From an uncultured virus (IMG/VR IMGVR_UViG_3300027733_000053) (taxonomy: Duplodnaviria; Heunggongvirae; Uroviricota; Caudoviricetes; Crassvirales): 64,000 nt of DNA. Position numbers and translations under genes: made by a program. The first letter of the stretch is position 1. Each line of letters opens with the position of its first letter. Under the pieces are notes generated by a model. It was not told the origin of the DNA and searched no databases. It worked only from the letters and a program-made list of their open reading frames with translations. This document shows positions 1-54,741 of this stretch, in pieces. The DNA lies in the IMG/VR virus record IMGVR_UViG_3300027733_000053. One strand, written 5' to 3'.

Positions 1-3000
1 CTTGATATTTTTCTACTGGTAATTTCTCAACAGTTTGCGCTCTAAGAGCTTTTGTTCCCTTAATGTTCCAATCAGACACAGTAACAGGATAACCTTCCTT
101 AGAAGCCACCTTTGCCACGTAAGCTACCTGATTATTTAAGTCAAACGATTTGTCTTTTCCATTCTCTTTTCTGAATAACTTTTCTGCTTCAGGAAGAAGT
201 TTCAACGGATCGCTGTTAAAGTCATACACCTTATCCTTAGCAACCTTCACAATGTAACCGTTACGACTAGGAACATTAGGCTCCAATCTATCAGGACGAG
301 TGTAAAGCATTGAACTCTTAACAAGTGGTGACTCTCCTCGGCTTGTAGCTAAGTGAGTACCTACCTTCTCAGGGTTTAACTCCTTGAACTTAGCGTCTGA
401 ATAATGGAAGAATAAATAGTTTCCTTTGTCATCCTCTGTCATCTCCTTGCGTTTACCTGCCTTCTCTACAAGGTCTGTTCCCTTACGAGGCTTTTGAAAT
501 AAAGGTTGTCCTTGACTTACACTTGCCTTTAGTTCTGGTGTTATGTCTATGGAGTGTTGGGTGGAAGTTATTTCTTCTTGTGATTTTTCTGATATTACTT
601 CATATTTTGCACCATTTGATACTTCTTTACTTAGCCAAGCACTTGCTTTTGATTTTGAATCAAAATTATGTGTAGTTACTTTCCCATTTTCGTCTTTAAC
701 TGTTAAATCAAAAGGGGCATTGAGATTATCAGATAATTTTATCTCCACCGTTTTCGGCTCTTGCTTAAACAAACTTTTAGCTACGTTACCTACTATTCCT
801 AAGCTTCCTTCTTTTGGTGAACCATAGAAGCCTTTCATGCCCTTGCCGCCTACTTGTAAATCTACACCTTCATATTTACCACCTTTATTATTAATTATTT
901 TTTCGGCAAGTTCTTTCCCTACAACACCTTCTAACTCACTTTCTTTATAACTACCGCTCGTCTCCTCCCCACTTTTATACTTTGATGTTATTTTATAAAC
1001 AGGAGAATTGTCGGAAGTGGATGTTCGGTCTAATTTAGCGTCTATGTTTTTAATTGTTTGACTCAAATCATACCTTGCATTCTGTTGATCACCTGTTGTC
1101 CACGCAATCTTATCAGCACCTTGTTTAACAGCTTCCTTAAGGGCTACCTTTAAGCCAAGTTTAGTCCAAGCATTTGTATCTGTTACGAATGGGGCTGATG
1201 GAACTTCGCCTCTATTATCAACTTGAAACATATCAAATGCCCTTCTTGAATCTAACATTTCTTGTTCGGCAGGTGCATACTTTTGTGCAAGTTTATTAAA
1301 ATCAGAATCCCTTTTTCTTAAATCAGACCTCGATTCTCCTTCTTTTTTCTTATTGTCATATTGCTTATCAAGTTCTTCTTCTATTTGATTAAACCTTTTG
1401 GTTGCAGAACTTACCTCATCTTGAAGTTTTTTTAATTCCGCTTTTTTTACAGGCGTTTCAAACCCTTCCTTTTTCCCTGTCTGCCCCCAATCGCTTTGTA
1501 CTTCCTCTAAGAACAATACTTTATTCCCTTGTGCATCTTTGCGGGTGTTCATTCGGAGGTGAACGAGGATGTTTGGCTCGTCAAAGTGGGAAGACTTGAA
1601 TTGACTTTCACCAGTTTCTTTTTTAGAAATTAATTCTCTAAATTTCACCATTTCTGATTCAGTAGCTACTTTTCTAAATCTTACTCCTTCACCATACTTT
1701 TTATATAACTGATTTTCATATTCCCTTAACTCATTTTCAGCTTTTATATTTTTGTTGACATTCGGCATTGTAACCAATACCTCTTTGTAATCATTTTTTT
1801 CTCCTTCAAGTTGGTATTGGGAGAACTTGGTGTCATCTGTTTTCTGTCTACTTTTTGGCTTATTTACATATCCTTCTATGCTCCAATTAATACCCTCTAA
1901 TCCATTAATGGCATTAACCATCATATTTTTACCTTCTCCTATGTAATATATTTCTGAAGTTTCACCTCTTTTTTTTATTACTTTAAACAAGCCGTTATCA
2001 GATATATTTACTCCTGAATTTATTTCAGAAAACAAAGACCCCTTTAATGGTATCTCTGTATCTATACTTCCTTTAACCACTTCAACAACACTAACTCTAT
2101 TGTCTTTAAGGTATTGTTGTATGTCTGCCTTAGATACAGAGCCTGTTTGAGAACTTAACCAATCAGTTAATCCTGTCCATTTAGCTTCTTCTCCCTTAGC
2201 AAATTTTTCAATCCATTGTTTAACAGGTAGCTTATCAAACTTGCTATCCGCAATTACTTTTTCAAGTGGTGAATAAAATCCATTAACTACATCTGGCTGA
2301 GTTTCTTTAACCTCAACATCTTTTCCATTAATATTTAATGAAGTGATTTCTTGTCTTGGCTTTTGCATATGAAGACTAGGTTCACCTTTTGATATTGCTT
2401 TATATTTTCCTAACTCGCTAGTTAAATCTTTTGAAGAAACATGATTAAGATCTGTATCGCTTTTAAATTTATATGATGGTTTTGTTGTAGTGGTAACTCC
2501 AAATCCTTTTGTTTCTGTTTCCCCAATCTTTGCACTTCTTCCTTCTATAGCTTGATTTTTACCAAATGTTTTAAATGTTTTATTGAAAATATCTACGCCA
2601 ACAGGTGATTTGTCTATTGTTTTTATAGCAAACGGATATGATGGATGGTTTAAATCTTTTTCAAAAAATACAGGGCTTGTTATTTTTAATGCTGAATACG
2701 CATCTCCTGTTTCTAATCCTTTTAAAAAATCTTCCTGACCTAAATCCATAAACATCTTGTCGACTCCAGCTCCTGATGCTTTATATTCCCCTTTCTTTAA
2801 TTTTGTTTTATCAAATACAAATTGCTTTTCTCCATTAGGGTTTAATATAAATGAATTTTCATTATACCCCATATCAATCAACATTTTTGTTATGATTGGA
2901 TTTGCATTTTTAATTAATGATGCTCTAAAAGAATCATAAGAAGAATTTGCTTCAGACATAGTTTGTCCATCTTCCATTCTTCCTCCTTTTAAATAATTAT

Positions 3001-6000
3001 CAAATAATCCAATAACAGAATCAACATTTCTTACATTTCCTATTTTATAAGTTGATTTTATAGCATCGATTAATCCATTATAACCCTCTTTATTTTTAGC
3101 ATAAGCCAATAAAGTTTTTACAAATCCAACTTTTGCAGATAAAGATGTTTTATGTTTTAAGTCACTACCTTTCCCAAGAACCACAGCACCAGGCTTAGGG
3201 TTTTCAGGCAATGATAAATTAAATATTTCTCCTTTTTTATTTTTTAATATCCAATCATTTTTCCCTTTACCTTTTTCAACTTCAAACGAACCTTCATTAA
3301 AAGATTCTGGTAATTTAATTCCATTATTTATAAATAACGATCTGTTAAATTGAGTAGAAAAAGAACCAGCAGAATCAGCACTTACTGATGCTCCAGCTTT
3401 CCCTGTTTCGCCTCCATTTAATGGATAAAAAACACCTCCATCAAAACTTGCTATTTTTTTACCATCATGTAAAATATCTCCTACAAACAAATCATCCCAA
3501 TGAGTAAGAGCAAATGTTAGATCTTTAAGCGAATCTTTTGGACTTATTACTTTTACTCTTCCACTTTCTACAGCTTTTTCACTTTCTTTTGCATCCAATG
3601 CTGGTTTTTTAGTTATCCCAGATTCCCCATAATTAGTAATCTGTTTTTGAATTGCAAAAATAGTATTTTTAGCTTTTTTCTTATTTTCTATTTTAACATC
3701 AATAGCCTCACCTTTTTCAAATCCTGTAGATATTTTATCTGCAAGTGCCTTTAATTCTCCTACAGTCTTTATTTTTCCAGACAAATCAACTCCTACAGCC
3801 TTCATCATATTAACAAAGATCTGTTTAATCTTATCGAAGTTACTCTCTGTAATTTTAACTTTACCGTCTGCAACGTCAGCAATAAATTCTGTTACAGCTT
3901 CCATCTTTTGTTGAGCCTCATCATAAGCTGAAGCAAACTCTTTTGAATAGAAACCTTCTTTACCTGCACGCTTCTCAGCCGAAACAACTTGATTAAATAA
4001 TCTATCAACAGCTTTCGGATCAACAGCATGTATAGCATTTAATATAGGATGAACTCCTTCGTGAAACAAGGTGTTGCTTTGAATTTTCTCAAGGTTCAGA
4101 TGAATAGTTTTTGTTTCTGAATCGTAAAATCCTCCTGCTACTATGCTTTCTTGTGCTTTACCACCTGCCTTTTCAGCAGCTTTCGCAAAAGCTTCTGGAG
4201 TTTCATGTGTTTCTACTTTTAAATCAGGACTAACATCTTTCAATGCAGCTACAACGTTATCAACCTGTGCCTTTGTCTTCTCTATTACTTCCTTTTGCCC
4301 TGCCTTAGCCTTAAGCTCTTCTAGTTGAGCCTTTTCGTTTTCTTTTAAAGTACCGTGTGATTCTTTTAGTTTAAGCGTGTTGTACTTACTTTTTTCTGCA
4401 GGAGTAATCTTTTCAGCTTTAACTTCTTCAGGTAATTTAGATGCCCATTCAGGAAGTAATCCTATTTTTTGTTCTGCAAAAGGTTTTTCTTTTGCAGAAA
4501 CTTTTTTGATATTACCATTCTCATCTCTTAAATGCTCACCAAAGTTAACCCAAGAGTTTTGTCCGCGAGTCTCAGTAGTCATAGCTCTTCTTGCTAATGG
4601 ACTAAACATACGAGCGTGAACATCCCATGCATTCTCTTCTCCCTTTGCTCCAAAAGAATTACCTCTTTCACCGTGACCAAATGCATCATGAACAAAACGG
4701 AACACATCGTTTACAAGCAATGGTTTTCCGTTAATGTCTTTCTGCCCACTATCTTTTAATAATGGATTCTCTGACCTTTGTTTTTCTGTTATCTCTTTAC
4801 CACCAAATTCTTTTTCTGTTGAAAGAACAAAAAGATGTTTATTATCTCTAAGGTCTTTAAGCATTTCAGTAGAATTCTTATATGGCTCTCCTTCCCCTTC
4901 ATATATTTCAACCTTGTAACCATTGTCAACTAAATGTTTATGTTGATCAACACTTTCTTTTGCTAAAGCTTCATAAGAGGCTTTAGTCTCAGGGTCATTA
5001 GGGTTATTCTTCATCTCTTGAAAAGCATCGGCACGTTTCTTTGCCTCCTCTTCACTGATATCGAAAATCTTTTCTCCCTTAGGTGTTTCTATCCCAACGT
5101 TCTTTTTGTAACTATCAGCTACATTAGAAATTTCAGGAACAGGTTCTGAAAATAATTTACCTCCAGCTTTTACTTCTTTAACTTCAATTTGTTTACCTTC
5201 TTCGGTAGGCGCAGTCCCTTGCTCGCCTTGTCCCATTCCGACACGTTCACCCCCTGTGACTCCAGCTTCGTTTTGTTCGCGTGGAAGAATCCCTGTTGTG
5301 CTTTGCTTTTGTACGGCATCTTTTTGTTGTGTTAGTTCGTTAATTTGTGTGTCTAAAATATCGTGAACGGATTTATATACAACAGGGACATTTTTTTTGT
5401 CTTCCTGTAAACGTTCAATCCTTGCCGTTAAATCTTCTGCTGTTACTGCATTATCTGCATTTAGTTTTGCTTCAACCAATTGTATATCAGCATCTGTTCT
5501 ATTTGCCTCAGCAATCTCTTGTTCCTTGAAATCGATTTGTTGATAAAGCATATCCTTTGCCTCGCCTTCAGGAAGATTCTCGAAAGCACTCTGCATCTCA
5601 GCAAGCTCTGTTTGCAGCTTGTCATTATTTGGAGCTGTCTTTTCTTCTACAGTGTTTATCTTATTAAGAATTTCTTTTGATGCAGGTGTATCAGATTTCT
5701 CTGCCTCGTTCTTAATGTCAGTAATGTTTACCTTCTTTAATCCTTCCTGTAAATTTTCAAATGATTGTTTTTCTTCAGGTGTAGCTTTGTTTTCTGCAAC
5801 CTTCTGAGAAATATCTTTTAAATCTTTTATTGATTTTATTTGTGATTTTATTTCTCCTGCACCGCGCATAGCTCCTGCAACTGCTGCAAAGTCTAATAGC
5901 TCTAAAACCATAGCACTATTGCTTCCTTCTTCAGGTTTTATGCCCATAGCATTTGTTAGCTTAGATACCATAGTAAATGGAGTATCTAAAACATTCTCTA

Positions 6001-6580
6001 CAGTTTTAGCTGTCTCAGGAGAAAGATTTTTATTTGCTGCTGTTTTTATTGCATCGATAGCTATGTTGAATTCTACTGCTGCAGGAATTAAATTGAATGC
6101 TGTTTGAGTGCCTCCTGTTAATGTCGTTAATGTTCCTTTTACAATATCTTGTTTCTGAACAGGTGTTCCAAAAAGCAAATTAGCTCCCTCTCCCATCTTC
6201 TCAACACCGCCCTTTATCGCTTCACCTGTTTTAACAGCAAACTCATTAGACCAATCGGCTATAGGTTGTAACGCTCCCCATGTTTGAGACATAGGAGTTT
6301 TAATGATAGGTTCTTCGTGTGGTTGATTGTTCTCTACTGCTGCAGCAAAAGACTCTAATTGATCCTTGTCATACCCTTTATCAACAAGGGTTTTGATGTA
6401 ATGCTCTTTATATATTGGTGATGGATTAGAAACTAAATCTTTAGCCATACCTTGCTTTAACAAGTCTGACTTAGCAAGATCGTGCTTAACGATGTTATCC
6501 TGTTTTATCTGATTGACATAAGGAACCTTAATCTTCTCCTCTGAAGTAGAAGGGGCTTCGAATCCCACAGCCTCTGCCAT
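1..6580 (-). CDS. Giant polyvalent virion/ejection protein, N-terminal part (>2190 aa, runs off the left edge; true start probably ATG 6725 via frameshift)
   Basis: Frame open from ATG 6580 to base 1; absent from the ORF track because no stop lies in the window. Manual translation shows HDAFGH (~4670-4690), HEGVH zincin motif (4049-4063), an EEVQSDW domain (~1490) and an ART-like FHYS..LYT domain (<450). Confidence 0.85.
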   Translation of the reverse strand, partial: MAEAVGFEAPSTSEEKIKVPYVNQIKQDNIVKHDLAKSDLLKQGMAKDLVSNPSPIYKEHYIKTLVDKGYDKDQLESFAAAVENNQPHEEPIIKTPMSQTWGALQPIADWSNEFAVKTGEAIKGGVEKMGEGANLLFGTPVQKQDIVKGTLTTLTGGTQTAFNLIPAAVEFNIAIDAIKTAANKNLSPETAKTVENVLDTPFTMVSKLTNAMGIKPEEGSNSAMVLELLDFAAVAGAMRGAGEIKSQIKSIKDLKDISQKVAENKATPEEKQSFENLQEGLKKVNITDIKNEAEKSDTPASKEILNKINTVEEKTAPNNDKLQTELAEMQSAFENLPEGEAKDMLYQQIDFKEQEIAEANRTDADIQLVEAKLNADNAVTAEDLTARIERLQEDKKNVPVVYKSVHDILDTQINELTQQKDAVQKQSTTGILPREQNEAGVTGGERVGMGQGEQGTAPTEEGKQIEVKEVKAGGKLFSEPVPEISNVADSYKKNVGIETPKGEKIFDISEEEAKKRADAFQEMKNNPNDPETKASYEALAKESVDQHKHLVDNGYKVEIYEGEGEPYKNSTEMLKDLRDNKHLFVLSTEKEFGGKEITEKQRSENPLLKDSGQKDINGKPLLVNDVFRFVHDAFGHGERGNSFGAKGEENAWDVHARMFSPLARRAMTTETRGQNSWVNFGEHLRDENGNIKKVSAKEKPFAEQKIGLLPEWASKLPEEVKAEKITPAEKSKYNTLKLKESHGTLKENEKAQLEELKAKAGQKEVIEKTKAQVDNVVAALKDVSPDLKVETHETPEAFAKAAEKAGGKAQESIVAGGFYDSETKTIHLNLEKIQSNTLFHEGVHPILNAIHAVDPKAVDRLFNQVVSAEKRAGKEGFYSKEFASAYDEAQQKMEAVTEFIADVADGKVKITESNFDKIKQIFVNMMKAVGVDLSGKIKTVGELKALADKISTGFEKGEAIDVKIENKKKAKNTIFAIQKQITNYGESGITKKPALDAKESEKAVESGRVKVISPKDSLKDLTFALTHWDDLFVGDILHDGKKIASFDGGVFYPLNGGETGKAGASVSADSAGSFSTQFNRSLFINNGIKLPESFNEGSFEVEKGKGKNDWILKNKKGEIFNLSLPENPKPGAVVLGKGSDLKHKTSLSAKVGFVKTLLAYAKNKEGYNGLIDAIKSTYKIGNVRNVDSVIGLFDNYLKGGRMEDGQTMSEANSSYDSFRASLIKNANPIITKMLIDMGYNENSFILNPNGEKQFVFDKTKLKKGEYKASGAGVDKMFMDLGQEDFLKGLETGDAYSALKITSPVFFEKDLNHPSYPFAIKTIDKSPVGVDIFNKTFKTFGKNQAIEGRSAKIGETETKGFGVTTTTKPSYKFKSDTDLNHVSSKDLTSELGKYKAISKGEPSLHMQKPRQEITSLNINGKDVEVKETQPDVVNGFYSPLEKVIADSKFDKLPVKQWIEKFAKGEEAKWTGLTDWLSSQTGSVSKADIQQYLKDNRVSVVEVVKGSIDTEIPLKGSLFSEINSGVNISDNGLFKVIKKRGETSEIYYIGEGKNMMVNAINGLEGINWSIEGYVNKPKSRQKTDDTKFSQYQLEGEKNDYKEVLVTMPNVNKNIKAENELREYENQLYKKYGEGVRFRKVATESEMVKFRELISKKETGESQFKSSHFDEPNILVHLRMNTRKDAQGNKVLFLEEVQSDWGQTGKKEGFETPVKKAELKKLQDEVSSATKRFNQIEEELDKQYDNKKKEGESRSDLRKRDSDFNKLAQKYAPAEQEMLDSRRAFDMFQVDNRGEVPSAPFVTDTNAWTKLGLKVALKEAVKQGADKIAWTTGDQQNARYDLSQTIKNIDAKLDRTSTSDNSPVYKITSKYKSGEETSGSYKESELEGVVGKELAEKIINNKGGKYEGVDLQVGGKGMKGFYGSPKEGSLGIVGNVAKSLFKQEPKTVEIKLSDNLNAPFDLTVKDENGKVTTHNFDSKSKASAWLSKEVSNGAKYEVISEKSQEEITSTQHSIDITPELKASVSQGQPLFQKPRKGTDLVEKAGKRKEMTEDDKGNYLFFHYSDAKFKELNPEKVGTHLATSRGESPLVKSSMLYTRPDRLEPNVPSRNGYIVKVAKDKVYDFNSDPLKLLPEAEKLFRKENGKDKSFDLNNQVAYVAKVASKEGYPVTVSDWNIKGTKALRAQTVEKLPVEKYQ

Positions 6581-6725
6581 TGATTTTGAAGTACCACCTA
6601 CCGATTTCGATGGTGAGGTGGGCGGATTTTTTTTTTGCCACACCGTTCAAATCGTCAAGTGTGGGTAGTGTTTCAGATGTTGAATCGTTGTTTAATTCGT
6701 CTAATGTTGGCAGTTTGTCTTCCAT
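6528..6725 (-). CDS. Short zero-frame ORF (MEDKLPTLDELN...AKKK); probable N-terminus of the giant protein
   Basis: ATG 2 nt after the upstream stop; duplicated LPTLD(E/D)LN peptide; A10 run overlaps the giant frame. Confidence 0.65.
   Translation of the reverse strand: MEDKLPTLDELNNDSTSETLPTLDDLNGVAKKKSAHLTIEIGRWYFKINGRGCGIRSPFYFRGED
6594..6636 (-). promoter_or_regulatory. Candidate recoding signal: A10 slippery run, 5-nt spacer, stem-loop
   Basis: Minus strand GC-AAAAAAAAAA-TCCGC-CCACCT(C)ACC-ATCGAAATC-GGTAGGTGG. Confidence 0.6.
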
Positions 6726-20421: not shown

Positions 20422-22008
20422 TTACATTGTTGGCCCTTTTCTATGAACCTCAGCAATTAAGCATTCACTCGTTATAAGCATTCCTGCAACACTGCAAGCG
20501 TTCTCCAATGCTACTCGGACAACCTTAGCAGGGTCAATAACACCTGACACAAATAAATCCTCGTGCTTCATTGTCTTAGCATTGTACCCGATAAACTCAC
20601 CAGACTTAATCTTAGCAAGGATAGTATCATCTACAACACCACAGTTAACAAGGATTTGTCTCAATGGAGCTTCCATAGACTTAACTATGATGCTTCCACC
20701 AATCTTCTCATCATCATTCAAGTATTCAACGTTTTTAGTAGCCTCGATACATGACAACAAACAAGAACCTCCCCCAGCAACGATACCTTCCTCAATAGCA
20801 GACTTAGTCGCTCTGATAGCATCGTCAACACGGTCTTTCTTCTCATCCATCTCCACATCAGAAGATGCACCTACAGACATAATCGCTACACCACCTGTTA
20901 ATCTTGCAAGACGTTTCTTTAAACGTTCTGTATCAAAGTCAATCTTAGCGTTAGCAATAAGAGCCTTAACCTCTGTTTGTCTCAACTCTAAAGCTCCGTC
21001 CTTAGACTTTCCACCAATAAAAGATGTAGTGCTGTCAGATGATACAACCTTAGCGCATGATCCTAAGTGAGAAAGTTGTGCGTTCTCAAGCTTTGTTCCA
21101 AGCGTGTCAGAGACAACAGTTGCTCCCGTCATAGTTGCGATGTCAGACAAGAATTCAATTCTGTAAGCAGATGGTGGCTTAATAGCAGAGAACTTAATTC
21201 CGCCCTTAACCTTATTCATAATAGCGAAAGATAAAGCTTCTCCCGATAAGTCACCACATACAATAACAAAAGGCTTACCTGATGGTAAAGCTTTCTCCAA
21301 GACAGGTTGTAATTGTTTCACTGTAGTGATGTCCTCATCTGTAACAAGAACAGTAACGTCCTCGTAAGATGCTTCCATTTTCTCAGCATCGGTTACAAAG
21401 TACTTAGAGATATAACCTTTGTCAATCTGCATCCCATCAACAACACGAATACTTGTCTCTGCTGTGTTAGAACTTTCTACATCAATAATACCATACTCAC
21501 CAATCTTAGCAAACGCTGAAGCGATAAGCTCTCCGATGAATGGGTCGTTGTTAGCAGAAATGGTTGCTACATTTTTAATCTTTTCTACATCACCATCAAT
21601 CTTTTGAGAGATAGTTTTAATGTGTGACACAACTGCATTTACAGCCTTATCCATACCGCGTTTTACATCGATAGGCTTAGCTCCACTTGCAATCATCTTT
21701 AACCCTTCAGAAGCCATAGCTTGTGCAAGAACTGTTGCAGTAGTTGTTCCGTCACCAGCATCATTAACTGTTTTACGGGCAACACCTTTTATCATCTCAA
21801 CACCTACATTCTCAATAGCGTCTTCAACTTGTATTGACTCAGCTACAGACACACCGTCTTTTGTTACAGATGGGTCAGCTCCGTGATAGTTGCTAATGAT
21901 TACGTTTCGTCCTGATGGCCCAAGGGTTACCTTTACGGCATCCGCCACAGTGTCAAAACCTTTCTTTACTCCACTCTTTGCTTCTTCTTTTGATAGAATC
22001 TTTTTCAT
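20422..22008 (-). CDS. groEL: Chaperonin GroEL
   Basis: VTLGPSGRNV, VTKDGVSVA, AGDGTTTATVLA, EEGIVAGGG, GVIDPAKV. Confidence 0.97.
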   Translation of the reverse strand: MKKILSKEEAKSGVKKGFDTVADAVKVTLGPSGRNVIISNYHGADPSVTKDGVSVAESIQVEDAIENVGVEMIKGVARKTVNDAGDGTTTATVLAQAMASEGLKMIASGAKPIDVKRGMDKAVNAVVSHIKTISQKIDGDVEKIKNVATISANNDPFIGELIASAFAKIGEYGIIDVESSNTAETSIRVVDGMQIDKGYISKYFVTDAEKMEASYEDVTVLVTDEDITTVKQLQPVLEKALPSGKPFVIVCGDLSGEALSFAIMNKVKGGIKFSAIKPPSAYRIEFLSDIATMTGATVVSDTLGTKLENAQLSHLGSCAKVVSSDSTTSFIGGKSKDGALELRQTEVKALIANAKIDFDTERLKKRLARLTGGVAIMSVGASSDVEMDEKKDRVDDAIRATKSAIEEGIVAGGGSCLLSCIEATKNVEYLNDDEKIGGSIIVKSMEAPLRQILVNCGVVDDTILAKIKSGEFIGYNAKTMKHEDLFVSGVIDPAKVVRVALENACSVAGMLITSECLIAEVHRKGPTM

Positions 22009-39006: not shown

Positions 39007-39070
39007 TTGCCTCTGAAACATCAGTAAAATCAACGAATATTAAAATAAATAAAAATAAATAAAAAAAAAC

Positions 39071-39095
39071 GTAACCTTAATCAGAAAGCCCCGTA
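39071..39095 (+). promoter_or_regulatory. ECF-type early promoter
   Basis: GTAACC-N15-CGTA. Confidence 0.7.
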
Positions 39096-39127
39096 TAACA
39101 AGTATATTAACCAATAAACAAAACACT

Positions 39128-39337: not shown

Positions 39338-39362
39338 GTAACCTTTACCAGAACACAGCGTA
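39338..39362 (+). promoter_or_regulatory. ECF-type early promoter
   Basis: GTAACC-N15-CGTA. Confidence 0.7.
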
Positions 39363-39398
39363 TAACAAGTATATTAACAATCTAAAAACCTAAACACT

Positions 39399-39590
39399 AT
39401 GAAAACTTACGAAGTAACACTATTGCTAGCTATCAATCCTTCAAGAGATATAGATTCAGCAGAACCGCAAACAAAAAGAGTTGAATTCAATGTTCAAGCT
39501 AATTCTGAGAATGAAGCAAGAGTAAAAGCAAAAGAATTAGAAACATCGGGGTTATCGGTTTGGGAAAGTTGGGCATATGAGGTTAACTGA
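39399..39590 (+). CDS. Small early protein; stop codon lies in the hammerhead core
   Basis: TGA 39588-39590 is part of CUGA. Confidence 0.7.
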   Translation: MKTYEVTLLLAINPSRDIDSAEPQTKRVEFNVQANSENEARVKAKELETSGLSVWESWAYEVN

Positions 39591-39630
39591 AGAGGATTCA
39601 ATATCCGAAACGCTGAGAAGCGTATTAACC
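39581..39630 (+). ncRNA. Hammerhead ribozyme 1 (type I; GUA, cut after 39624)
   Basis: GGTTAA-CTGAAGA-GGAT/ATCC-GAAA-CGCT(GAGA)AGCG-TA-TTAACC. Confidence 0.92.
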
Positions 39631-39649
39631 AACTAAAAACACTACTACT

Positions 39650-40006
39650 ATGAAAACTGAAAACAAAAAAATCGAAACCCTTCTTAATGAAGCGAAAGAA
39701 TTGCTTACCATCTTTGATGATTACAACGTAGCTACAGATGATGTTAAAGCTAGAATAAAAGCAATACTTGATGAGATGACTAACGATGATGATGATGATG
39801 ACTCATTTTATTCTAGCTTTAACATCATCTACAGAATCTGCGATAAAACGGGAGAAAAATTCACTGAAGGCTTTTGTTTCGGAGATGGCGAAAGATATTT
39901 CGCAAGCGAAGAACACGCCTTAGAATATGCAAAAGAAATAGGATACGAGAGTCTAGATGAAGCGTACAATGATGATGCATACTATTTCTCAATTTGGGGC
40001 GAATAA
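39650..40006 (+). CDS. Acidic early protein
   Basis: 118 aa, poly-Asp tract. Confidence 0.7.
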   Translation: MKTENKKIETLLNEAKELLTIFDDYNVATDDVKARIKAILDEMTNDDDDDDSFYSSFNIIYRICDKTGEKFTEGFCFGDGERYFASEEHALEYAKEIGYESLDEAYNDDAYYFSIWGE

Positions 40007-40056
40007 GGTTAACTGAAGAGTCCTAAATGGACGAAACGCTGAGAAGCGTCTTAACC
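40007..40056 (+). ncRNA. Hammerhead ribozyme 2 (GUC, cut after 40050)
   Basis: GGTTAA-CTGAAGA-GTCC/GGAC-GAAA-CGCT(GAGA)AGCG-TC-TTAACC. Confidence 0.93.
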
Positions 40057-40074
40057 AATAAAAACTTAAACACT

Positions 40075-40341
40075 ATGAAAACTTTCAAACAAGGCGAACA
40101 AAACACTAACGAAGAACACAACGTAAATTCGTTAATAGTAGAAATGGCTTCAGAAATGGCAAGCGAAACTACAGAAAGATTTTTTAATCTTATGGGCATC
40201 AAATTAGAGCAAGAAGACGAGAGCGGAGATACACGTTACACTGACGATGCTCAAGATTTTTTTAACGAAGAATACGACAGACAAATGGATTTGCTTTACG
40301 CCTTCACAAACGACTTAATGAAGATAACAAACAAAGGTTAA
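40075..40341 (+). CDS. Acidic early protein (start moved from 40027 to 40075)
   Basis: ACACTATG leader; the ATG at 40027 is inside the ribozyme. Confidence 0.7.
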   Translation: MKTFKQGEQNTNEEHNVNSLIVEMASEMASETTERFFNLMGIKLEQEDESGDTRYTDDAQDFFNEEYDRQMDLLYAFTNDLMKITNKG

Positions 40342-40385
40342 CTGACGAGTCCTAAGGGGACGAAACGCTGAGAAGCGTCTTAACC
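40336..40385 (+). ncRNA. Hammerhead ribozyme 3 (GUC, cut after 40379)
   Basis: GGTTAA-CTGACGA-GTCC/GGAC-GAAA-CGCT(GAGA)AGCG-TC-TTAACC. Confidence 0.93.
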
Positions 40386-40403
40386 AATAAAAAAATAAAC
40401 ACT

Positions 40404-40739
40404 ATGAAAACTACAAGAGAAAAAATCGAAGCATCAATCCTAAGACAACAATACAGTCAACGAGGAGGCGGAGTAGAAATTGACCTAGCAAAATTCGGCT
40501 TTAGAGAAGGTAGCAGAATGTCAGCCTACCAAAACTACTTAGGAGGCGGAATGTTGGGAAGCATCCAAACAAACCACAACATCTTCAGAACATCATTCAC
40601 GACCACTGAGACAAGAAAGCTAGAAAGAATAGCGTTAGAGCTATCGAAATACTTTCACGAGCTAACGAATCACGAGGATGATGAGTGGGAATCTGCATCC
40701 TTCGAAGAGAATCAAAACAGACCTGCATCAGCATACTAA
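40404..40739 (+). CDS. Early hypothetical protein
   Basis: YQNYLGGGMLG motif. Confidence 0.7.
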   Translation: MKTTREKIEASILRQQYSQRGGGVEIDLAKFGFREGSRMSAYQNYLGGGMLGSIQTNHNIFRTSFTTTETRKLERIALELSKYFHELTNHEDDEWESASFEENQNRPASAY

Positions 40740-40758
40740 CTTTTAAGACCTAGAAACT

Positions 40759-40968
40759 ATGGAAAAAGGAAAAAAATATATCGAAGAAGGCCGAATAGAT
40801 GGAGAAAAAACATTCACTAAACAAGGAGCTATCAGAAGAATAAAGTCAATACTAAAGGACGATAAAGAATTGCTAGAAACTTTACACATAGAGGATGTTA
40901 ACAAACTTTCAGAAGACAGACTCTTAGATATAGCGTATAACTACTACGAGATAAGCGCAATTAACTAA
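40759..40968 (+). CDS. Small early protein
   Basis: CCTAGAAACTATG leader. Confidence 0.65.
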   Translation: MEKGKKYIEEGRIDGEKTFTKQGAIRRIKSILKDDKELLETLHIEDVNKLSEDRLLDIAYNYYEISAIN

Positions 40969-40988
40969 CCAATAAAAACCTAGAAACT

Positions 40989-41111
40989 ATGGAAAAATTA
41001 GAAGCCCTAAAAAAGACGCTAGAAACGATTAAAAATTTGCCCGACCAACACAAACACCTTGACGCTATGCATTGGCTCGCAAATCGCATAAAAGAGGCAG
41101 AAAAAGGTTAA
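40989..41111 (+). CDS. 40-aa early protein (not in ORF track)
   Basis: MEKLEALKKTLE...EKG; same leader as the previous gene; TAA lies in hammerhead stem I. Confidence 0.6.
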   Translation: MEKLEALKKTLETIKNLPDQHKHLDAMHWLANRIKEAEKG

Positions 41112-41159
41112 CTGAAGAGGATTCAATATCCGAAACCTACAGAAATGTAGGTCTTAACC
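41106..41159 (+). ncRNA. Hammerhead ribozyme 4 (GUC, cut after 41153)
   Basis: GGTTAA-CTGAAGA-GGAT/ATCC-GAAA-CCTACA(GAAA)TGTAGG-TC-TTAACC; stem III fully covaried. Confidence 0.93.
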
Positions 41160-41173
41160 AAAAAAACACTATT

Positions 41174-41425
41174 ATGAAAACAGAAATTAATTTTAGCAAC
41201 AAAAAATGTGGATTCACTTTTGACTTAGAAGCGAAAGAAATTAGCGGATGGGACTTCACCGACAAGTACAACGATGTAAAGTGTTACAACAGGACGAGCC
41301 GTTCTATAAAAAAGGCTCTGAGCAATCTACAGAACGAATTTAACGATGACCTTTCTATGTATCAAGTTATGGATATAATTTCTAATTCGGGAGTAAAAAT
41401 GCATTCATATTGTGGGATGGACTAA
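41174..41425 (+). CDS. Early hypothetical protein (start moved from 41072 to 41174)
   Basis: A-rich leader after the ribozyme. Confidence 0.65.
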   Translation: MKTEINFSNKKCGFTFDLEAKEISGWDFTDKYNDVKCYNRTSRSIKKALSNLQNEFNDDLSMYQVMDIISNSGVKMHSYCGMD

Positions 41426-41483
41426 CAAGCCACGCACAACGACCTATAACTGAGAAGTACTAACTGACCAAAACTAAAACACT

Positions 41484-41648: not shown

Positions 41649-41707
41649 AAAAGCTACACGAAACGACCTATAACTGAGAACGACTAACCACTAAAAACAA
41701 AAATACT

Positions 41708-41869: not shown

Positions 41870-41871
41870 AC

Positions 41872-41896
41872 GAAACCTTTTCAGAAAACCAACGTA
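41872..41896 (+). promoter_or_regulatory. ECF-type promoter
   Basis: GAAACC-N15-CGTA. Confidence 0.6.
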
Positions 41897-41933
41897 AAAC
41901 AAATAAAATTAATTAATTTAAAAAATAAAAACT

Positions 41934-42158: not shown

Positions 42159-42229
42159 ATTTTCAAGTTAAAATCTTGATCTATTTACCGACATGTAACT
42201 GAGAACGACTAACTAAAAAAAACAAAAAT

Positions 42230-42662: not shown

Positions 42663-42680
42663 AAATAAAACAAAAAAAAC

Positions 42681-42705
42681 GTAACCTTTTTGAAAAGCAT
42701 ACGTA
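42681..42705 (+). promoter_or_regulatory. ECF-type promoter
   Basis: GTAACC-N15-CGTA. Confidence 0.7.
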
Positions 42706-42739
42706 GAACAAATAAAATCAACTTTAAATTATAGAAATT

Positions 42740-43027: not shown

Positions 43028-43031
43028 AAAC

Positions 43032-43056
43032 GTAACCTTCTACAAAACCAAACGTA
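43032..43056 (+). promoter_or_regulatory. ECF-type promoter
   Basis: GTAACC-N15-CGTA. Confidence 0.7.
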
Positions 43057-43100
43057 CAAACCTGTAACTGAGAACGACTAACTAAAAAAACTAAAAAGCT

Positions 43101-43448: not shown

Positions 43449-43453
43449 ACGAT

Positions 43454-43494
43454 AGGAGGGGGTGTTTAGTAGTGTTTTCACTTCCTCCTTTTTT
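43454..43494 (+). terminator. Intrinsic terminator
   Basis: AGGAGG..GTG/CAC..CCTCCT stem plus U-run. Confidence 0.7.
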
Positions 43495-43535
43495 AAAACT
43501 ACCACACGTAACGAGCTATAACTGAGAAGAAAATT

Positions 43536-43796
43536 ATGACGAATATAAAAACGCTTAAAGATTTATCAATTTTAAATGAGAAATTTGATACAAGTAACGG
43601 ACACGGGTTCGATGGAGAAAAAGGATCTCGCTTTGATTTTAACGATGGCTCTTTTCTAATTGTAGGAACTATTCTTGTAAGATTGCAAAAGCCTGAAAAC
43701 TATATGGTTTACGTTAATCCCGAAAAGGCAATAGTGCTAAGAAACAAAAGATTATCCGCTCAGCAGATAGACACAATCTTTAAATTGGTATCTTAG
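43536..43796 (+). CDS. Hypothetical protein
   Basis: ORF. Confidence 0.6.
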   Translation: MTNIKTLKDLSILNEKFDTSNGHGFDGEKGSRFDFNDGSFLIVGTILVRLQKPENYMVYVNPEKAIVLRNKRLSAQQIDTIFKLVS

Positions 43797-48612: not shown

Positions 48613-49431
48613 ATGAAAGAAATAACCATTAAAACAGCCGAGACAACGTTCTTAGCCCTAAAGAAGACTGCTAGCGAACTCGCTCAGAAGTGTGCGTCAA
48701 TAGTAATCTCTGACGAATCATCCAAACAAATCGCCATCCAAAACTATTCAATGCTGAAGGAGAAGATAGGACAGATAGAAGACATCCGTGTGAAAGAGAA
48801 GGCTCCGTATCTTGACGCTGGAAAGCAAATCGATGCATTAGCCAAGGCTTTGAAAGAACCAATGGATGCAGTGTTGCAGGAAGGAAGAAACAAGATAAAG
48901 GAGTACGACACTATTCAGGCACAGATTGCTAAGATAGAGGCTGACAGACTGCAAGCAATAAAGGATGAGATTACAATTCATGCTAAAAATTCTATAACAT
49001 TGTTTGATCAGTGCGACACTATCGAACTTTTATCTAAGGCACGAGACAGAGTTGTTGTTAACTTCATCCCGCCTATCGCTTGGCAAGAGATTGATGAAGT
49101 TAATCAGCTAACAAAAATATCTCTCAATGATTATTGCAAGCAAAGACGCATAGAGATTATGTCTCCCAAGCAGGCTGACGAATCCGTTACACAAATGATT
49201 AAGGAGGAGATTGCTGAGAAGATTGAGGAGGTTACTCCTGTAGCATATCAAAGCACAACGAAGATGCGAGGCACACCGAAGTTTAACGTGCTTGACCTAG
49301 GTGCTGTTCCGAGAGAATGGTTGATGTTGGACGAGGCTAAGGTGAAAGAATATCAGAGAGCAAACAAAGGAATAACGGGCATTGTAAACGGAATTGAATT
49401 TTTTATTGATTATAGTGTAACCATTAAATAA
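48613..49431 (+). CDS. Coiled-coil protein of the recombination module
   Basis: R...K.PY..A.K.ID; VPREWL..D. Confidence 0.6.
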   Translation: MKEITIKTAETTFLALKKTASELAQKCASIVISDESSKQIAIQNYSMLKEKIGQIEDIRVKEKAPYLDAGKQIDALAKALKEPMDAVLQEGRNKIKEYDTIQAQIAKIEADRLQAIKDEITIHAKNSITLFDQCDTIELLSKARDRVVVNFIPPIAWQEIDEVNQLTKISLNDYCKQRRIEIMSPKQADESVTQMIKEEIAEKIEEVTPVAYQSTTKMRGTPKFNVLDLGAVPREWLMLDEAKVKEYQRANKGITGIVNGIEFFIDYSVTIK

Positions 49432-54535: not shown

Positions 54536-54639
54536 AGTCAGGTGGCGGAATGGTAGACGCTAAAATAACAAGTGGACAGCGTGCCATTGGGGAAGGGCCA
54601 AGAAAGTTACGCATGCAGGTTCGATTCCTGTCCTGACTA
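54536..54639 (+). ncRNA. tRNA-like RNA without a canonical anticodon arm
   Basis: Acceptor AGTCAGG/CCTGACT, Leu-type D-arm, T-arm GCAGG-TTCGATT-CCTGT, 54-nt insert. Confidence 0.7.
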
Positions 54640-54655
54640 CAAAAATAGACATTAT

Positions 54656-54741
54656 GGTCAAATGGTGTAAGTGGGAATAAATACCACCTAGGATAACAGC
54701 TCTGAGAAAGAGAGATGCAGGTTCGAATCCTGCTTTGACCA
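54656..54741 (+). ncRNA. tRNA-like RNA with degenerate anticodon arm
   Basis: Acceptor GGTCAAA/TTTGACC, T-arm GCAGG-TTCGAAT-CCTGC. Confidence 0.65.

What the first reader, a model, noticed from the sequence alone, without database searches (positions are those of the whole stretch)
39581..41159. Array of four hammerhead ribozymes punctuating the phage early-gene operon
Seen: four elements (39581, 40007, 40336, 41106) each have the full hammerhead core CUGANGA / GAAA / GUH and three paired stems. Stem II covaries (GGAU/AUCC vs GUCC/GGAC), stem III covaries (CGCU/AGCG vs CCUACA/UGUAGG), and stem I is constant (GGUUAA/UUAACC). Each sits exactly at a gene junction: the upstream stop codon is inside or abutting the ribozyme (in copy 1 the UGA of CUGA is the stop), and cleavage falls 20-25 nt before the next AUG. 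The 3' products begin UUAACCAA..., the same leader found after the promoter at 39071. Established: this core self-cleaves to leave 2',3'-cyclic phosphate and 5'-OH ends. Inference: a protein-free equivalent of T7 RNase III early-mRNA processing, which frees ribosome-loading leaders and sets mRNA stability for host-takeover genes.
Basis: partly seen in the sequence, partly recalled or inferred. Interest (0 to 1): 0.93.

Follow-up and report, generated by a model that had tools for sequence, protein, structure and literature searches.

The report
Four hammerhead ribozymes between phage genes
Four self-cutting RNA motifs sit between small genes of an uncultured Flavobacteria-type phage and probably chop a long early transcript into single-gene messages, an arrangement already described for phages in 2011.

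Summary
Window 39581-39630, 40007-40056, 40336-40385 and 41106-41159 (+) each carry a complete type I hammerhead: CUGANGA, GAAA, A15.1-U16.1, H17 = A/C/C/C, G10.1-C11.1 and three stems. A descriptor scan finds 4 in the window against a mean of 0.05 in 200 shuffles. My own covariance model scores them 62.8-81 bits, and the next best match scores 12.6.

They belong to a large phage subfamily: stem I of exactly 6 bp flanked by A and A, stem II of 4 bp, and a U-N-A-N-U loop. In a sample that left stem I free, 134 of 138 matches are complete hammerheads and stem I covaries. Arrays of up to 9 occur.

Each copy starts at or over the upstream stop codon and cuts 20-25 nt before the next AUG. In a relative whose orthologous protein is 94% identical, HH3 is replaced by a promoter-like element, and homology resumes where the leader starts.

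Clustered hammerheads flanking single prophage genes, and the idea that they process transcripts, were published in 2011 (PMC3088659). This is a new member of a known kind. No RNA data were available, so cleavage and its purpose are inferred.

Novelty: the arrangement is not new as a kind.

The parts
39070..39111 (+). P1: promoter-like two-box element (CGTAACCTT - 13 nt - CGTATAAC), followed by TTAACCAATAAAC...ATG
   Evidence: Repeat families D4/D5. The second box matches exactly at 39092 and 39359. Conserved in related phages L144 and L339. Promoter function is inferred.
39338..39378 (+). P2: second copy of the promoter-like element and the likely start of the transcript that carries HH1-HH4
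   Evidence: No terminator-like site was called on the + strand between 38875 and 45767.
39399..39590 (+). Small ORF (63 aa) whose UGA stop is the UGA of the HH1 core
   Evidence: No Pfam or PHROG family.
39581..39630 (+). HH1: type I hammerhead, predicted cut after 39624 (GUA)
   Evidence: 75.5 bits with my own model. Found by the descriptor. Not found by Rfam.
39625..39649 (+). 25-nt leader of the 3' product of HH1 (UUAACCAACUAAAAAC...)
39650..40006 (+). ORF of 118 aa with an acidic stretch, lying between HH1 and HH2
40007..40056 (+). HH2: type I hammerhead, predicted cut after 40050 (GUC)
   Evidence: Rfam RF00163 at 34.3 bits against a cut-off of 34. 81 bits with my own model.
40075..40341 (+). 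ORF of 88 aa between HH2 and HH3; its TAA stop lies in stem I of HH3
40336..40385 (+). HH3: type I hammerhead, predicted cut after 40379 (GUC)
   Evidence: Rfam at 31.4 bits. 77.1 bits with my own model. Replaced by a P element in relatives L339/L340.
40404..41111 (+). Three ORFs (111, 69 and 40 aa) between HH3 and HH4, separated by plain leaders of 19-20 nt without a ribozyme
   Evidence: Orthologs of the first ORF occur in 12 viral loci.
41106..41159 (+). HH4: type I hammerhead with a 7-bp stem III, predicted cut after 41153 (GUC)
   Evidence: 62.8 bits with a model that did not contain it.. An ortholog lies at L339 3154-3209.
41174..41425 (+). ORF of 83 aa behind HH4, followed by the first X element

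Best explanation
The four elements are active, cis-cleaving type I hammerhead ribozymes. They are transcribed as part of one polycistronic RNA, probably started at the promoter-like elements P1/P2 (39070, 39338), of a phage that likely infects Flavobacteriia or another Bacteroidota host.

Proposed mechanism:
- Each ribozyme folds once its 50-54 nt have left the polymerase.
- Stem I is 6 bp. The conserved unpaired A on each side of it, together with the U-N-A-N-U loop of stem II, probably supplies the tertiary contact that natural hammerheads need at cellular Mg2+.
- The RNA cuts itself after H17.
- The upstream piece keeps its stop codon. It ends in the ribozyme body, with the stem II and stem III hairpins and a 2',3'-cyclic phosphate.
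- The downstream piece begins with a 5'-OH on UUAACCAA... and has a 20-25 nt A-rich leader before the AUG.
- The result is single-gene mRNAs for the 118-aa and 88-aa genes, a three-gene mRNA, and a downstream piece that starts with the 83-aa gene. These have defined ends, are insulated from each other, and probably differ in stability.
- This gives the same outcome as RNase III processing of T7 early RNA, but without a protein.
- Stem I is constant in this phage because its 3' strand is the start of the phage's generic intergenic leader.

Basis of each step:
- Shown: motif, folds, covariation, placement, and replacement of HH3 by a promoter-like element in a relative.
- Inferred: cleavage, the tertiary contact, the transcript start, and the effect on stability or translation.
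For: Core, folds and scores:
- The core is complete in 4 of 4 copies, and each isolated copy has the hammerhead as its minimum-energy fold.
- The copies score 62.8-81 bits against 12.6 for the next best match.
- The descriptor gives 4 hits against 0.05 expected.

Family evidence that does not depend on the descriptor:
- Of 147 unique viral matches to a pattern that fixes only the 5' half, 137 also have all three stems.
- Of 138 unique matches to a pattern that leaves stem I free, 134 are complete. In these 134, stem I is exactly 6 bp in all, and there are about 40 covarying stem I sequences. The 5' flank is A in 133 of 134 and the 3' flank is A in 134 of 134. H17 is C in 122 and A in 12, and never G because the descriptor excludes G.
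- Loop II reads U in 146 of 146, A in 135 of 146 and U in 129 of 146 at positions 1, 3 and 5.
- Loop position 5 covaries with the base 3' of stem I: U/A 243, A/U 16, G/A 9, A/A 2 and U/U 0, out of 270.

Placement across 174 hammerheads:
- An upstream ORF stops within 10 nt of the ribozyme start in 134.
- An ORF AUG lies within 40 nt of the cut in 119, with the mode at 19-24 nt.

Other evidence:
- Arrays: 32 of 103 contig stretches hold 2 to 9 copies.
- No + strand terminator was called between P2 and HH4.
- In L339/L340 a P element replaces HH3 in front of an ortholog whose protein is 94% identical, and homology resumes at 40381, one base after the cut.
- Print: tandem prophage hammerheads cleaved in vitro, and one set also in E. 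coli (PMC3088659, section 6 read).
Against:
- With 50 nt of flank on each side, only HH3 and HH4 keep the hammerhead as their minimum-energy fold. HH1 loses stem I in the minimum-energy fold and pairs UUAACC with an upstream GUUGGG in the centroid. HH2 loses stems I and II to a competing pairing.
- Rfam's type I model reaches its cut-off for one copy only.
- Stem I is short and rich in A-U, and the proposed tertiary contact rests on conservation and on about two independent covariation events.
- The ribozyme is not needed to express the gene behind it. None of 12 loci with orthologs of the gene behind HH3 has a hammerhead in that place; they have a P element, a Bacteroidota-type promoter or a plain spacer.
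- Two junctions of this operon have the same leader without a ribozyme.
- The 20-25 nt distance from cut to AUG equals the ordinary spacer length here, so it is not evidence for a special role in ribosome loading.
Confidence: 0.7

Rival explanations
1. The ribozymes are mainly passengers of cassette shuffling. The repeated block of stop codon, hammerhead and leader is a recombination junction at which small early-gene cassettes are exchanged between phages. Cleavage may happen but has little selective value for gene expression.
For: - HH2 and HH3 with their leaders are 94% identical over 79 nt.
- The close relative L339 is a mosaic of the window's segments, with breakpoints at the junction elements.
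- L037 has copies of the leader together with the 3' part of stem III but without the ribozyme's 5' half.
- A hammerhead is absent at the orthologous junction in 12 of 12 loci.
- TTAACCA outside hammerheads precedes an ORF start in 48 of 143 cases, against 10% for permuted words.
- Other hammerheads in the same stretch share GGUUAA/UUAACC in 37 of 65 cases, against 19 of 134 in the sample that left stem I free.
Against: - A mere recombination repeat would not keep the catalytic core intact, exclude G at position 17, and maintain three helices by compensatory change. Complete hammerheads make up 134 of 138 and 137 of 147 matches.
- Selection acts on the RNA fold.
- The two views are compatible rather than exclusive.
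Confidence: 0.15
2. The array makes circular RNAs. All four copies share stem I, so each segment cut out between two ribozymes has UUAACC at its 5'-OH end and GGUUAA plus the ribozyme body at its cyclic-phosphate end. The ends can pair, re-form a hammerhead and be joined, either by the ribozyme's reverse reaction or by a host RtcB-type ligase. This would give exonuclease-resistant circular mRNAs for small early proteins.
For: - Stem I is identical in 4 of 4 copies, although GGUUAA/UUAACC makes up only 19 of 134 in the sample that left stem I free.
- Stem I is shared within arrays more often than the baseline, in 37 of 65 cases.
- The end chemistry follows from established hammerhead chemistry.
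- The idea is raised in PMC3088659 (section 6 read).
Against: - PMC3088659 reports looking for circular or spliced products and not finding them (data not shown there).
- 28 of 65 neighbouring hammerheads have a different stem I, so compatibility is not generally kept.
- The constant stem I is explained more simply by the shared leader.
- No ligase was found among the 28 and 30 window proteins scanned, which were not all of them.
Confidence: 0.07
3. The motifs are catalytically inactive RNA structures, or DNA-level signals. In this view they act only as 3' stabilising hairpins, pause sites or protein-binding sites between genes.
For: - Misfolds are predicted in context for HH1 and HH2.
- There is no canonical loop-bulge contact.
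- Rfam scores are weak.
Against: - Every catalytic position is conserved in all four copies and in 134 of 138 family members.
- A hairpin-only role would not require CUGANGA, GAAA or a non-G base at position 17.
Confidence: 0.05

Closest known systems
Clustered hammerhead ribozymes flanking single genes in prophages (Perreault et al. 2011, PMC3088659; examples from Clostridium scindens, Azorhizobium caulinodans and Agrobacterium tumefaciens ardA)
   Same: - Several hammerheads lie on one strand.
- Each sits between small, non-conserved phage genes.
- The proposed role is cutting a long phage transcript into single-gene mRNAs.
- There is a link to ArdA: the phi18:3 hammerhead lies in the run of small genes leading to ArdA gp045, and the window has a weak ArdA-like ORF at 48613-49431.
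   Different: - All copies here are type I, with one fixed geometry: a 6-bp stem I flanked by A/A, and a 4-bp stem II with a U-N-A-N-U loop.
- The host group is Bacteroidota-type, and the phage is a free (metagenomic) virus.
- The stop codon is built into the ribozyme.
- A ribozyme and a promoter-like element alternate at the same junction.
- I did not see that paper's alignments (Dataset S1), so the subfamily may already be in them.
Rfam RF00163 Hammerhead_1 (type I)
   Same: The core and the three-helix topology with an open stem I are the same. HH2 and HH3 resemble the model's stem II (GUCC..AAAU..GGAC).
   Different: - Only 1 of 4 copies reaches the cut-off, and 2 of 4 are not seen at all.
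- No hammerhead was reported at E<=0.1 in six related loci, among them L058, which has five pattern matches.
- Stem III is long and stable here, and there is no stem I bulge.
RNase III processing of bacteriophage T7 early mRNA
   Same: One early polycistronic transcript is cut at intergenic sites into individual mRNAs that keep a 3' hairpin.
   Different: - No host enzyme is needed.
- The ends are 5'-OH and 2',3'-cyclic phosphate rather than 5'-phosphate and 3'-OH.
- The resemblance is functional only.
Hammerhead of haloarchaeal viruses HF1/HF2, 13 nt upstream of a helicase start codon (PMC3088659, discussion passage read)
   Same: The ribozyme lies just upstream of an early gene's start codon. 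A mapped transcript 5' end lies within 3 nt of the cut.
   Different: It is a single, variant-core copy in an archaeal virus, not an array.
Synthetic ribozyme insulators such as RiboJ
   Same: A self-cleaving ribozyme upstream of a coding region standardises the 5' leader whatever lies upstream.
   Different: RiboJ is engineered and is derived from a type III satellite ribozyme.

Membership tests
Hammerhead ribozyme | Core C3 U4 G5 A6 N7 G8 A9 | tested here: met
   CUGAAGA in HH1, HH2 and HH4, and CUGACGA in HH3.
Hammerhead ribozyme | Core G12 A13 A14, followed by the A15.1-U16.1 pair | tested here: met
   GAA followed by A...U closing stem III in 4 of 4 copies.
Hammerhead ribozyme | Cleavage-site triplet with H17 not G | tested here: met
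   GUA in HH1 and GUC in HH2-4.
Hammerhead ribozyme | G10.1-C11.1 pair at the base of stem II | tested here: met
   4 of 4 copies. G in 145 of 146 and C in 144 of 146 relatives.
Hammerhead ribozyme | Three helices supported by compensatory change | tested here: met
   - Within the window, stems II and III differ by double changes.
- On 20 sequences, 11 of 15 pairs show changes on both sides, although this set was chosen by a pairing descriptor.
- In the sample that left stem I free, 134 of 138 matches have all stems, with about 40 stem I sequences.
Hammerhead ribozyme | Tertiary contact between stem I and loop II, needed for activity at low Mg2+ | tested here: inconclusive
   - The A flanks of stem I and the U-N-A-N-U loop are conserved.
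- Loop position 5 covaries with the 3' flank in 16 of 16 switches, but these come from about two lineages.
- There is no structural test.
Hammerhead ribozyme | Score at or above Rfam's gathering cut-off (RF00163, 34 bits) | tested here: inconclusive
   HH2 scores 34.3 (met) and HH3 31.4 (not met). HH1 and HH4 give no match at E<=10. My own subfamily model scores them 62.8-81 bits.
Hammerhead ribozyme | Site-specific self-cleavage that leaves a 2',3'-cyclic phosphate and a 5'-OH | not testable with these tools
Clustered phage hammerheads that process polycistronic RNA (Perreault 2011) | Two or more hammerheads on one strand flanking single genes or short gene blocks of a phage | tested here: met
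   - There are four copies in 1.6 kb, with one, one and three genes between them.
- The window is a phage: terminase, portal and virion proteins are present.
Clustered phage hammerheads that process polycistronic RNA (Perreault 2011) | All copies lie in one transcript | tested here: inconclusive
   No + strand terminator-like site was called between 39338 and 41159. The promoter and the transcript itself are not shown.

The most novel reading that the evidence does not exclude
Because all four ribozymes share one stem I, every segment released between two of them carries the two matching halves of a hammerhead at its ends. It can therefore close on itself into a circular, exonuclease-resistant mRNA for a small early protein. 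This would be a DNA phage making translatable RNA circles with tandem type I hammerheads.

A milder new reading is better supported. In these Bacteroidota phages a ribozyme and a promoter are interchangeable devices for giving a gene the same leader. This is shown by the swap of HH3 for a P element at an orthologous junction.
Probability: 0.07. Interest if true: 0.85.

Novelty: new member of a known kind. Interest (0 to 1): 0.4.

Why it matters
The biological role of the many hammerheads in phage genomes is still called an open question in the reviews I read in passages (PMC6155905, PMC6765202).

This window offers a clean natural case:
- It has four copies of one tightly defined subfamily, each with the stop codon built in.
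- The copies sit next to junctions of the same operon that use a promoter-like element or nothing at all.
- A close relative has a promoter-like element where this phage has a ribozyme.

That contrast, and the presence of the same subfamily in a cultured phage (Cellulophaga phage phi18:3), make the question testable. One can ask whether cleavage changes mRNA half-life or translation in hosts that do not use Shine-Dalgarno pairing.

There is also a practical point: Rfam's type I model largely misses this subfamily.

Tried and rejected
- **RNA evidence.** The look-up of sequencing runs listed 17 DNA holders and no RNA holder.
- **Strain variants.** I therefore have no variant data from strains.
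- **Own genome.** It is not held. The nearest record, G001, is a 33.5-kb fragment that does not cover this region.
- **BLAST against cultured phages.** The 4-kb region gave no match. A 59-nt hammerhead query gave only four chance-level Agrobacterium phage hits at E = 0.4.
- **Rfam on related loci.** There were no ribozyme matches in L003-L006 at E<=1 or in six array-bearing loci at E<=0.1, although the motifs are there. I take this as low sensitivity of the model, not absence.
- **Neighbour-gene route to relatives.** The 25 loci around homologs of the 36361-37161 gene hold no hammerhead in 414,929 bases. They turned out to be poorly syntenic.
- **The second junction repeat (X..CTATAACTGAGAAC..).** I considered it as another ribozyme and rejected that. 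It has no conserved pairing and no Rfam match. A promoter is more likely.
- **Host from metagenome-bin titles.** The titles are mixed and unreliable, and only some of those loci pass the descriptor.
- **'Cut-to-AUG distance shows 5'-end-dependent translation'.** Rejected, because plain junctions have the same spacer length.
- **'Stem I is invariant in the family'.** Rejected. That impression was an artefact of my first pattern.
Full report
**1. The observation**

The sequence at 39581-41159 contains four elements with every defining position of a hammerhead.
- Each has a 6-nt 5' strand (GGUUAA) and the core CUGANGA.
- Stem II is 4 bp, closed by G10.1-C11.1, with a 5-nt loop.
- GAA follows, then a stem III that begins with A15.1 and ends with U16.1.
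- Position 17 is not G (A, C, C, C), and the 3' strand is UUAACC.
- HH1 and HH4 share stem II (GGAU/AUCC), and HH2 and HH3 share GUCC/GGAC.
- HH1-3 share stem III (CGCU/AGCG), and HH4 has CCUACA/UGUAGG.

Each isolated element folds into the three-way junction as its minimum-energy structure. Rfam's type I model gives 34.3 bits for HH2 (cut-off 34) and 31.4 for HH3. It does not report HH1 or HH4 even at E<=10 on a 6.3-kb slice.

A simple descriptor (core, at least 3 bp in stems II and III, at least 4 bp in stem I, H17 not G) finds exactly these four sites on both strands of the 64-kb window. In 200 dinucleotide-preserving shuffles it finds a mean of 0.05 and a maximum of 1.

I built a covariance model from 17 related viral sequences plus HH1-3. 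With filters off it scores HH2 81, HH3 77.1, HH1 75.5 and the unseeded HH4 62.8 bits. The next best match scores 12.6 bits. There are therefore four copies and no degenerate fifth.

**2. Placement**

ORF calls put each ribozyme exactly between two genes.

| Copy | Upstream stop | Cut after | Next AUG | Leader |
|---|---|---|---|---|
| HH1 | UGA of the core, 39588-39590 | 39624 | 39650 | 25 nt |
| HH2 | TAA at 40004-40006, abutting | 40050 | 40075 | 24 nt |
| HH3 | TAA inside GGUUAA, 40339-40341 | 40379 | 40404 | 24 nt |
| HH4 | TAA inside GGUUAA, 41109-41111 | 41153 | 41174 | 20 nt |

- One gene lies between HH1 and HH2, one between HH2 and HH3, and three between HH3 and HH4.
- The three genes between HH3 and HH4 are separated by plain 19-20-nt leaders without a ribozyme.
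- The motif offers a stop in two reading frames always (UAA in stem I, UGA in the core).
- It offers a stop in the third frame when the second loop II base is A or G, because the loop begins U-N-A. I read this from the sequence and from the loop counts.

**3. Context**

The window is a tailed phage.
- It encodes a large terminase, a portal, virion proteins and a GroEL-like chaperonin on the minus strand.
- It encodes exonuclease, a recombinase-like protein and a primase/helicase-like protein elsewhere.
- Its terminase is 35-37% identical to those of podophages of Flavobacterium, Maribacter, Cellulophaga and Tenacibaculum. All 87 matching records are of that host group or unnamed.
- The region from about 39100 to about 46700 is a run of roughly 30 small plus-strand ORFs. 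Of the 26 scanned, 2 hit a PHROG, both of unknown function. The 8 genes of the ribozyme unit have no Pfam family.

'Early' and 'host-takeover' are therefore inferences from position and gene size, not findings.

The region carries two more repeat families besides the hammerheads.
- The first is a two-box element, CGTAACCTT - 13 nt - CGTA(T)AAC, behind an A-rich tract. It lies at 39070, 39338, 41871, 42680 and 43031, and it recurs in related phages. I call it P.
- The second is an unstructured 25-30-nt element, ..ACGnAACGAcCTATAACTGAGAAc.., at 41437, 41661, 42186, 43055 and 43510. One copy lies directly behind a hairpin followed by a T-run at about 43450-43495, which I read by eye. I call it X.
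- X has no conserved pairing and no Rfam match.
- Both are most simply read as promoters, but nothing here shows that.
- No + strand terminator-like site is called between P2 and HH4. This fits one transcript through all four ribozymes.

**4. The family**

Of 147 unique matches, 137 also have a paired stem II, a stem III hairpin, a non-G position 17 and the complementary stem I strand. The other 10 are near misses.

That pattern forces stem I, so I ran a second one (CTGANGAG NNN TNANT NNN CGAAAC) that leaves stem I free. Of 138 unique matches, 134 are complete hammerheads. In those 134:
- Stem I is exactly 6 bp in all.
- The base before stem I is A in 133 and the base after it is A in all 134.
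- Position 17 is C in 122 and A in 12.
- Stem I takes about 40 different complementary sequences, of which GGUUAA/UUAACC is the commonest at only 19.

So stem I covaries in the family, and it is constant only within this phage and its kin.

Loop II reads U (146 of 146), N, A (135), N, U (129). Loop position 5 and the base 3' of stem I switch together: U/A 243, A/U 16, G/A 9, A/A 2 and U/U 0, out of 270. The 16 switches come from about two lineages, and in those stem I can also lengthen by a pair. The fixed 6-bp length, the two flanking adenines and the two loop uridines are what one expects of a stem I-loop II tertiary contact. This remains an inference.

Across 174 unique hammerheads:
- An ORF of at least 40 aa stops within 10 nt of the ribozyme's first base in 134.
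- An ORF of at least 40 aa starts within 40 nt of the cut in 119, with a sharp mode at 19-24 nt.
- The script uses the first in-frame ATG, so some true cases, such as HH2, are counted as misses.

Other family observations:
- Of 103 contig stretches, 32 hold two or more copies, up to nine, spaced mostly 170-1000 nt apart.
- The 131 distinct proteins encoded just downstream have a median length of 78 aa.
- Of the first 103 of those that I scanned, 10 hit a PHROG, all of unknown function.
- Two of the five cultured or named relatives searched have a match.
- Cellulophaga phage phi18:3 has a complete hammerhead at 21901-21961 (-), between gp050 and gp049. It lies in a run of small genes that leads to ArdA gp045.
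- Flavobacterium phage elemoF has a weaker match (37.1 bits) whose stem II looks imperfect to me. It lies under an annotated 35-aa ORF on the opposite strand.

**5. Why stem I is constant here, and what the relatives show**

The word TTAACCA outside hammerheads, on the hammerhead strand of the related loci, is followed by an ORF start 14-34 nt later in 48 of 143 cases. For 40 permuted control words the figure is 234 of 2253. Leaders such as AUUAACCAAUAAAAC(C/U)UAGAAA..AUG occur at many ribozyme-free junctions.

In the window, the junction at 40961-40990 and the sequence behind P1 (39107, TTAACCAATAAAC) are examples. The 3' strand of stem I is therefore the beginning of a generic leader of these phages, and the 5' strand is its complement.

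The comparative result is as follows.
- Orthologs of the gene behind HH3 (40404-40739) occur in 12 viral loci at 50-94% identity.
- The model finds hammerheads in only two of them, the near-identical L339 and L340, and not in front of the ortholog.
- In L339 a P element stands in front of the ortholog (94% protein identity). Nucleotide homology to the window resumes at 40381, one base after the HH3 cut site.
- In L341-L345 the ortholog follows a plain A-rich spacer.
- In L346-L350 it follows a sequence that fits the Bacteroidota promoter consensus as I recall it (TTTG ... TAnnTTTG).
- L339 keeps an ortholog of HH4 behind the 40-aa gene, but with a different stem III and a different downstream gene.
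- L037 has leader copies that retain the 3' part of stem III without the ribozyme's 5' half.

The junction elements are thus exchanged as modules, with breakpoints in the shared leader. The same gene can be served by a ribozyme, a promoter-like element, a host-type promoter or nothing.

**6. Mechanism**

Best reading (0.7): the four RNAs self-cleave in the nascent early transcript.
- Each upstream product keeps its stop codon and ends in two stable hairpins and a cyclic phosphate.
- Each downstream product starts with a 5'-OH and the ordinary leader.
- This separates the cistrons physically, as RNase III does for T7 early RNA. It probably gives them separate, longer lives, since the ends are poor substrates for end-dependent decay. 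That last step is inference from established RNA-decay knowledge and was not tested.
- The stop codon lies in the 5' strand of the ribozyme, so a terminating ribosome must transiently unfold it. Cleavage and upstream translation may therefore influence each other (inference).

Evidence against a strong version of this reading:
- With 50 nt of flank on each side, HH1 and HH2 are predicted to misfold.
- The ribozyme is dispensable for the downstream gene in the relatives.
- Plain junctions in the same operon have the same spacer length, so the 20-25 nt leader is not special to cleavage.

Rivals:
- Passenger of cassette shuffling (0.15). This is compatible with catalysis.
- Circular mRNA formation through the shared stem I (0.07).
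- Inactive structures (0.05).

**7. What is known**

Perreault et al. 2011 (PMC3088659; section 6 and several passages read) made the following points.
- They reported that multiple hammerheads often flank individual genes or short gene blocks in prophages.
- They proposed that long phage transcripts are processed into single-gene mRNAs.
- They showed cleavage of three tandem arrangements in vitro, and of one in E. coli.
- They noted the ArdA link.
- They looked for circular or spliced products without finding them.

De la Peña et al. 2017 (PMC6155905, passages read) state that such ribozymes flank ORFs for small, non-conserved proteins, are persistently tied to phages, and that their role is an open question. 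Weinberg et al. 2019 (PMC6765202, passages read) say the same of bacterial self-cleaving ribozymes. A 2026 paper (PMC13725137, passages read) calls type I hammerheads usual DNA-encoded motifs of bacteria and phages.

Full-text searches gave the following.
- 'hammerhead' with 'Flavobacterium phage' found nothing.
- 'Cellulophaga', 'phage' and 'ribozyme' found one unrelated review.
- Searches turned up no description of this subfamily's geometry or of a ribozyme/promoter swap.
- I did not open the 2011 paper's sequence alignments, where the subfamily may be present.

**8. Verdict**

The functional reading is the published hypothesis for this kind of arrangement and remains untested here.

It is a new member of a known kind, with three useful additions:
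- A sharply defined subfamily that Rfam's model largely misses.
- An explanation for the constant stem I, namely the shared leader.
- A natural ribozyme-for-promoter replacement at an orthologous junction.

Noticed in passing
window 39070-39111, 39338-39378, 41871-41912, 42680-42721, 43031-43060; also L144 18788-18840 and 19413-19475, and L339 1943-1995, 2200-2265 and 2452-2503: A two-box element, (C)GTAACCTT - 12/13 nt - CGTA(T)AAC, lies behind an A-rich tract and is followed 20-35 nt later by an ATG. It is conserved across related phages and differs from the Bacteroidota promoter consensus as I recall it. It is probably a phage-specific promoter.
   Followed up: partly
window 41437-41479, 41661-41703, 42186-42228, 43055-43097, 43496-43558: A second junction repeat..ACGnAACGAcCT(A/G)TAACTGAGAA(C/G).., has five copies. 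It shows no conserved pairing and has no Rfam match. One copy lies directly behind a hairpin and T-run at about 43450-43495. It is likely another promoter class that shares a TATAAC box with the first.
   Followed up: partly
window 54536-54639 and 54656-54741 (+): Two adjacent Rfam tRNA matches (35.9 and 35.1 bits) carry long unaligned inserts of 45 and 26+11 nt. ARAGORN calls no tRNA anywhere in the window. They could be tRNA-like elements, intron-bearing tRNAs or degenerate tRNAs.
   Followed up: no
window 48613-49431 (+): A 272-aa ORF downstream of the small-gene run matches Pfam ArdA weakly (E 5.6e-4, 21 bits, below the cut-off of 27). ArdA is the gene that the 2011 paper found next to hammerheads.
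   Followed up: no
window 2-6643 (-): A very long ORF of more than 2214 aa runs off the window's start. It was not characterised.
   Followed up: no
window 20422-22008 (-): A phage-encoded GroEL-like chaperonin (phrog_5725, E 2.6e-138) lies among the structural genes.
   Followed up: no
L143 1031-1138 (NC_055853.1 16030-16137): The annotated 35-aa gene gp66 of Flavobacterium phage elemoF lies on the strand opposite to the surrounding genes and covers the hammerhead-like match (37.1 bits). It is probably not a gene.
   Followed up: partly
L037 3190-3250, 3440-3490 and 3960-4015: These junctions keep a hairpin plus GGUGUC UUAACCAA.. This is the 3' part of stem III, the cleavage triplet and the leader, but the 5' half of the ribozyme is missing. 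They look like relics of recombination within the junction repeat.
   Followed up: partly
L016 (- strand), about 45 nt upstream of offset 5713 as counted: A hammerhead-like element has CCGAUGA in place of CUGAUGA (U4 to C) but otherwise intact stems and leader. It is a candidate inactivated copy.
   Followed up: no
L199 (Paraflavitalea speifideaquila chromosome NZ_CP135920.1, about 3,203,870-3,204,080): Two complete hammerheads of the same subfamily lie 175 nt apart in a cultured Chitinophagaceae genome, presumably in a prophage.
   Followed up: no
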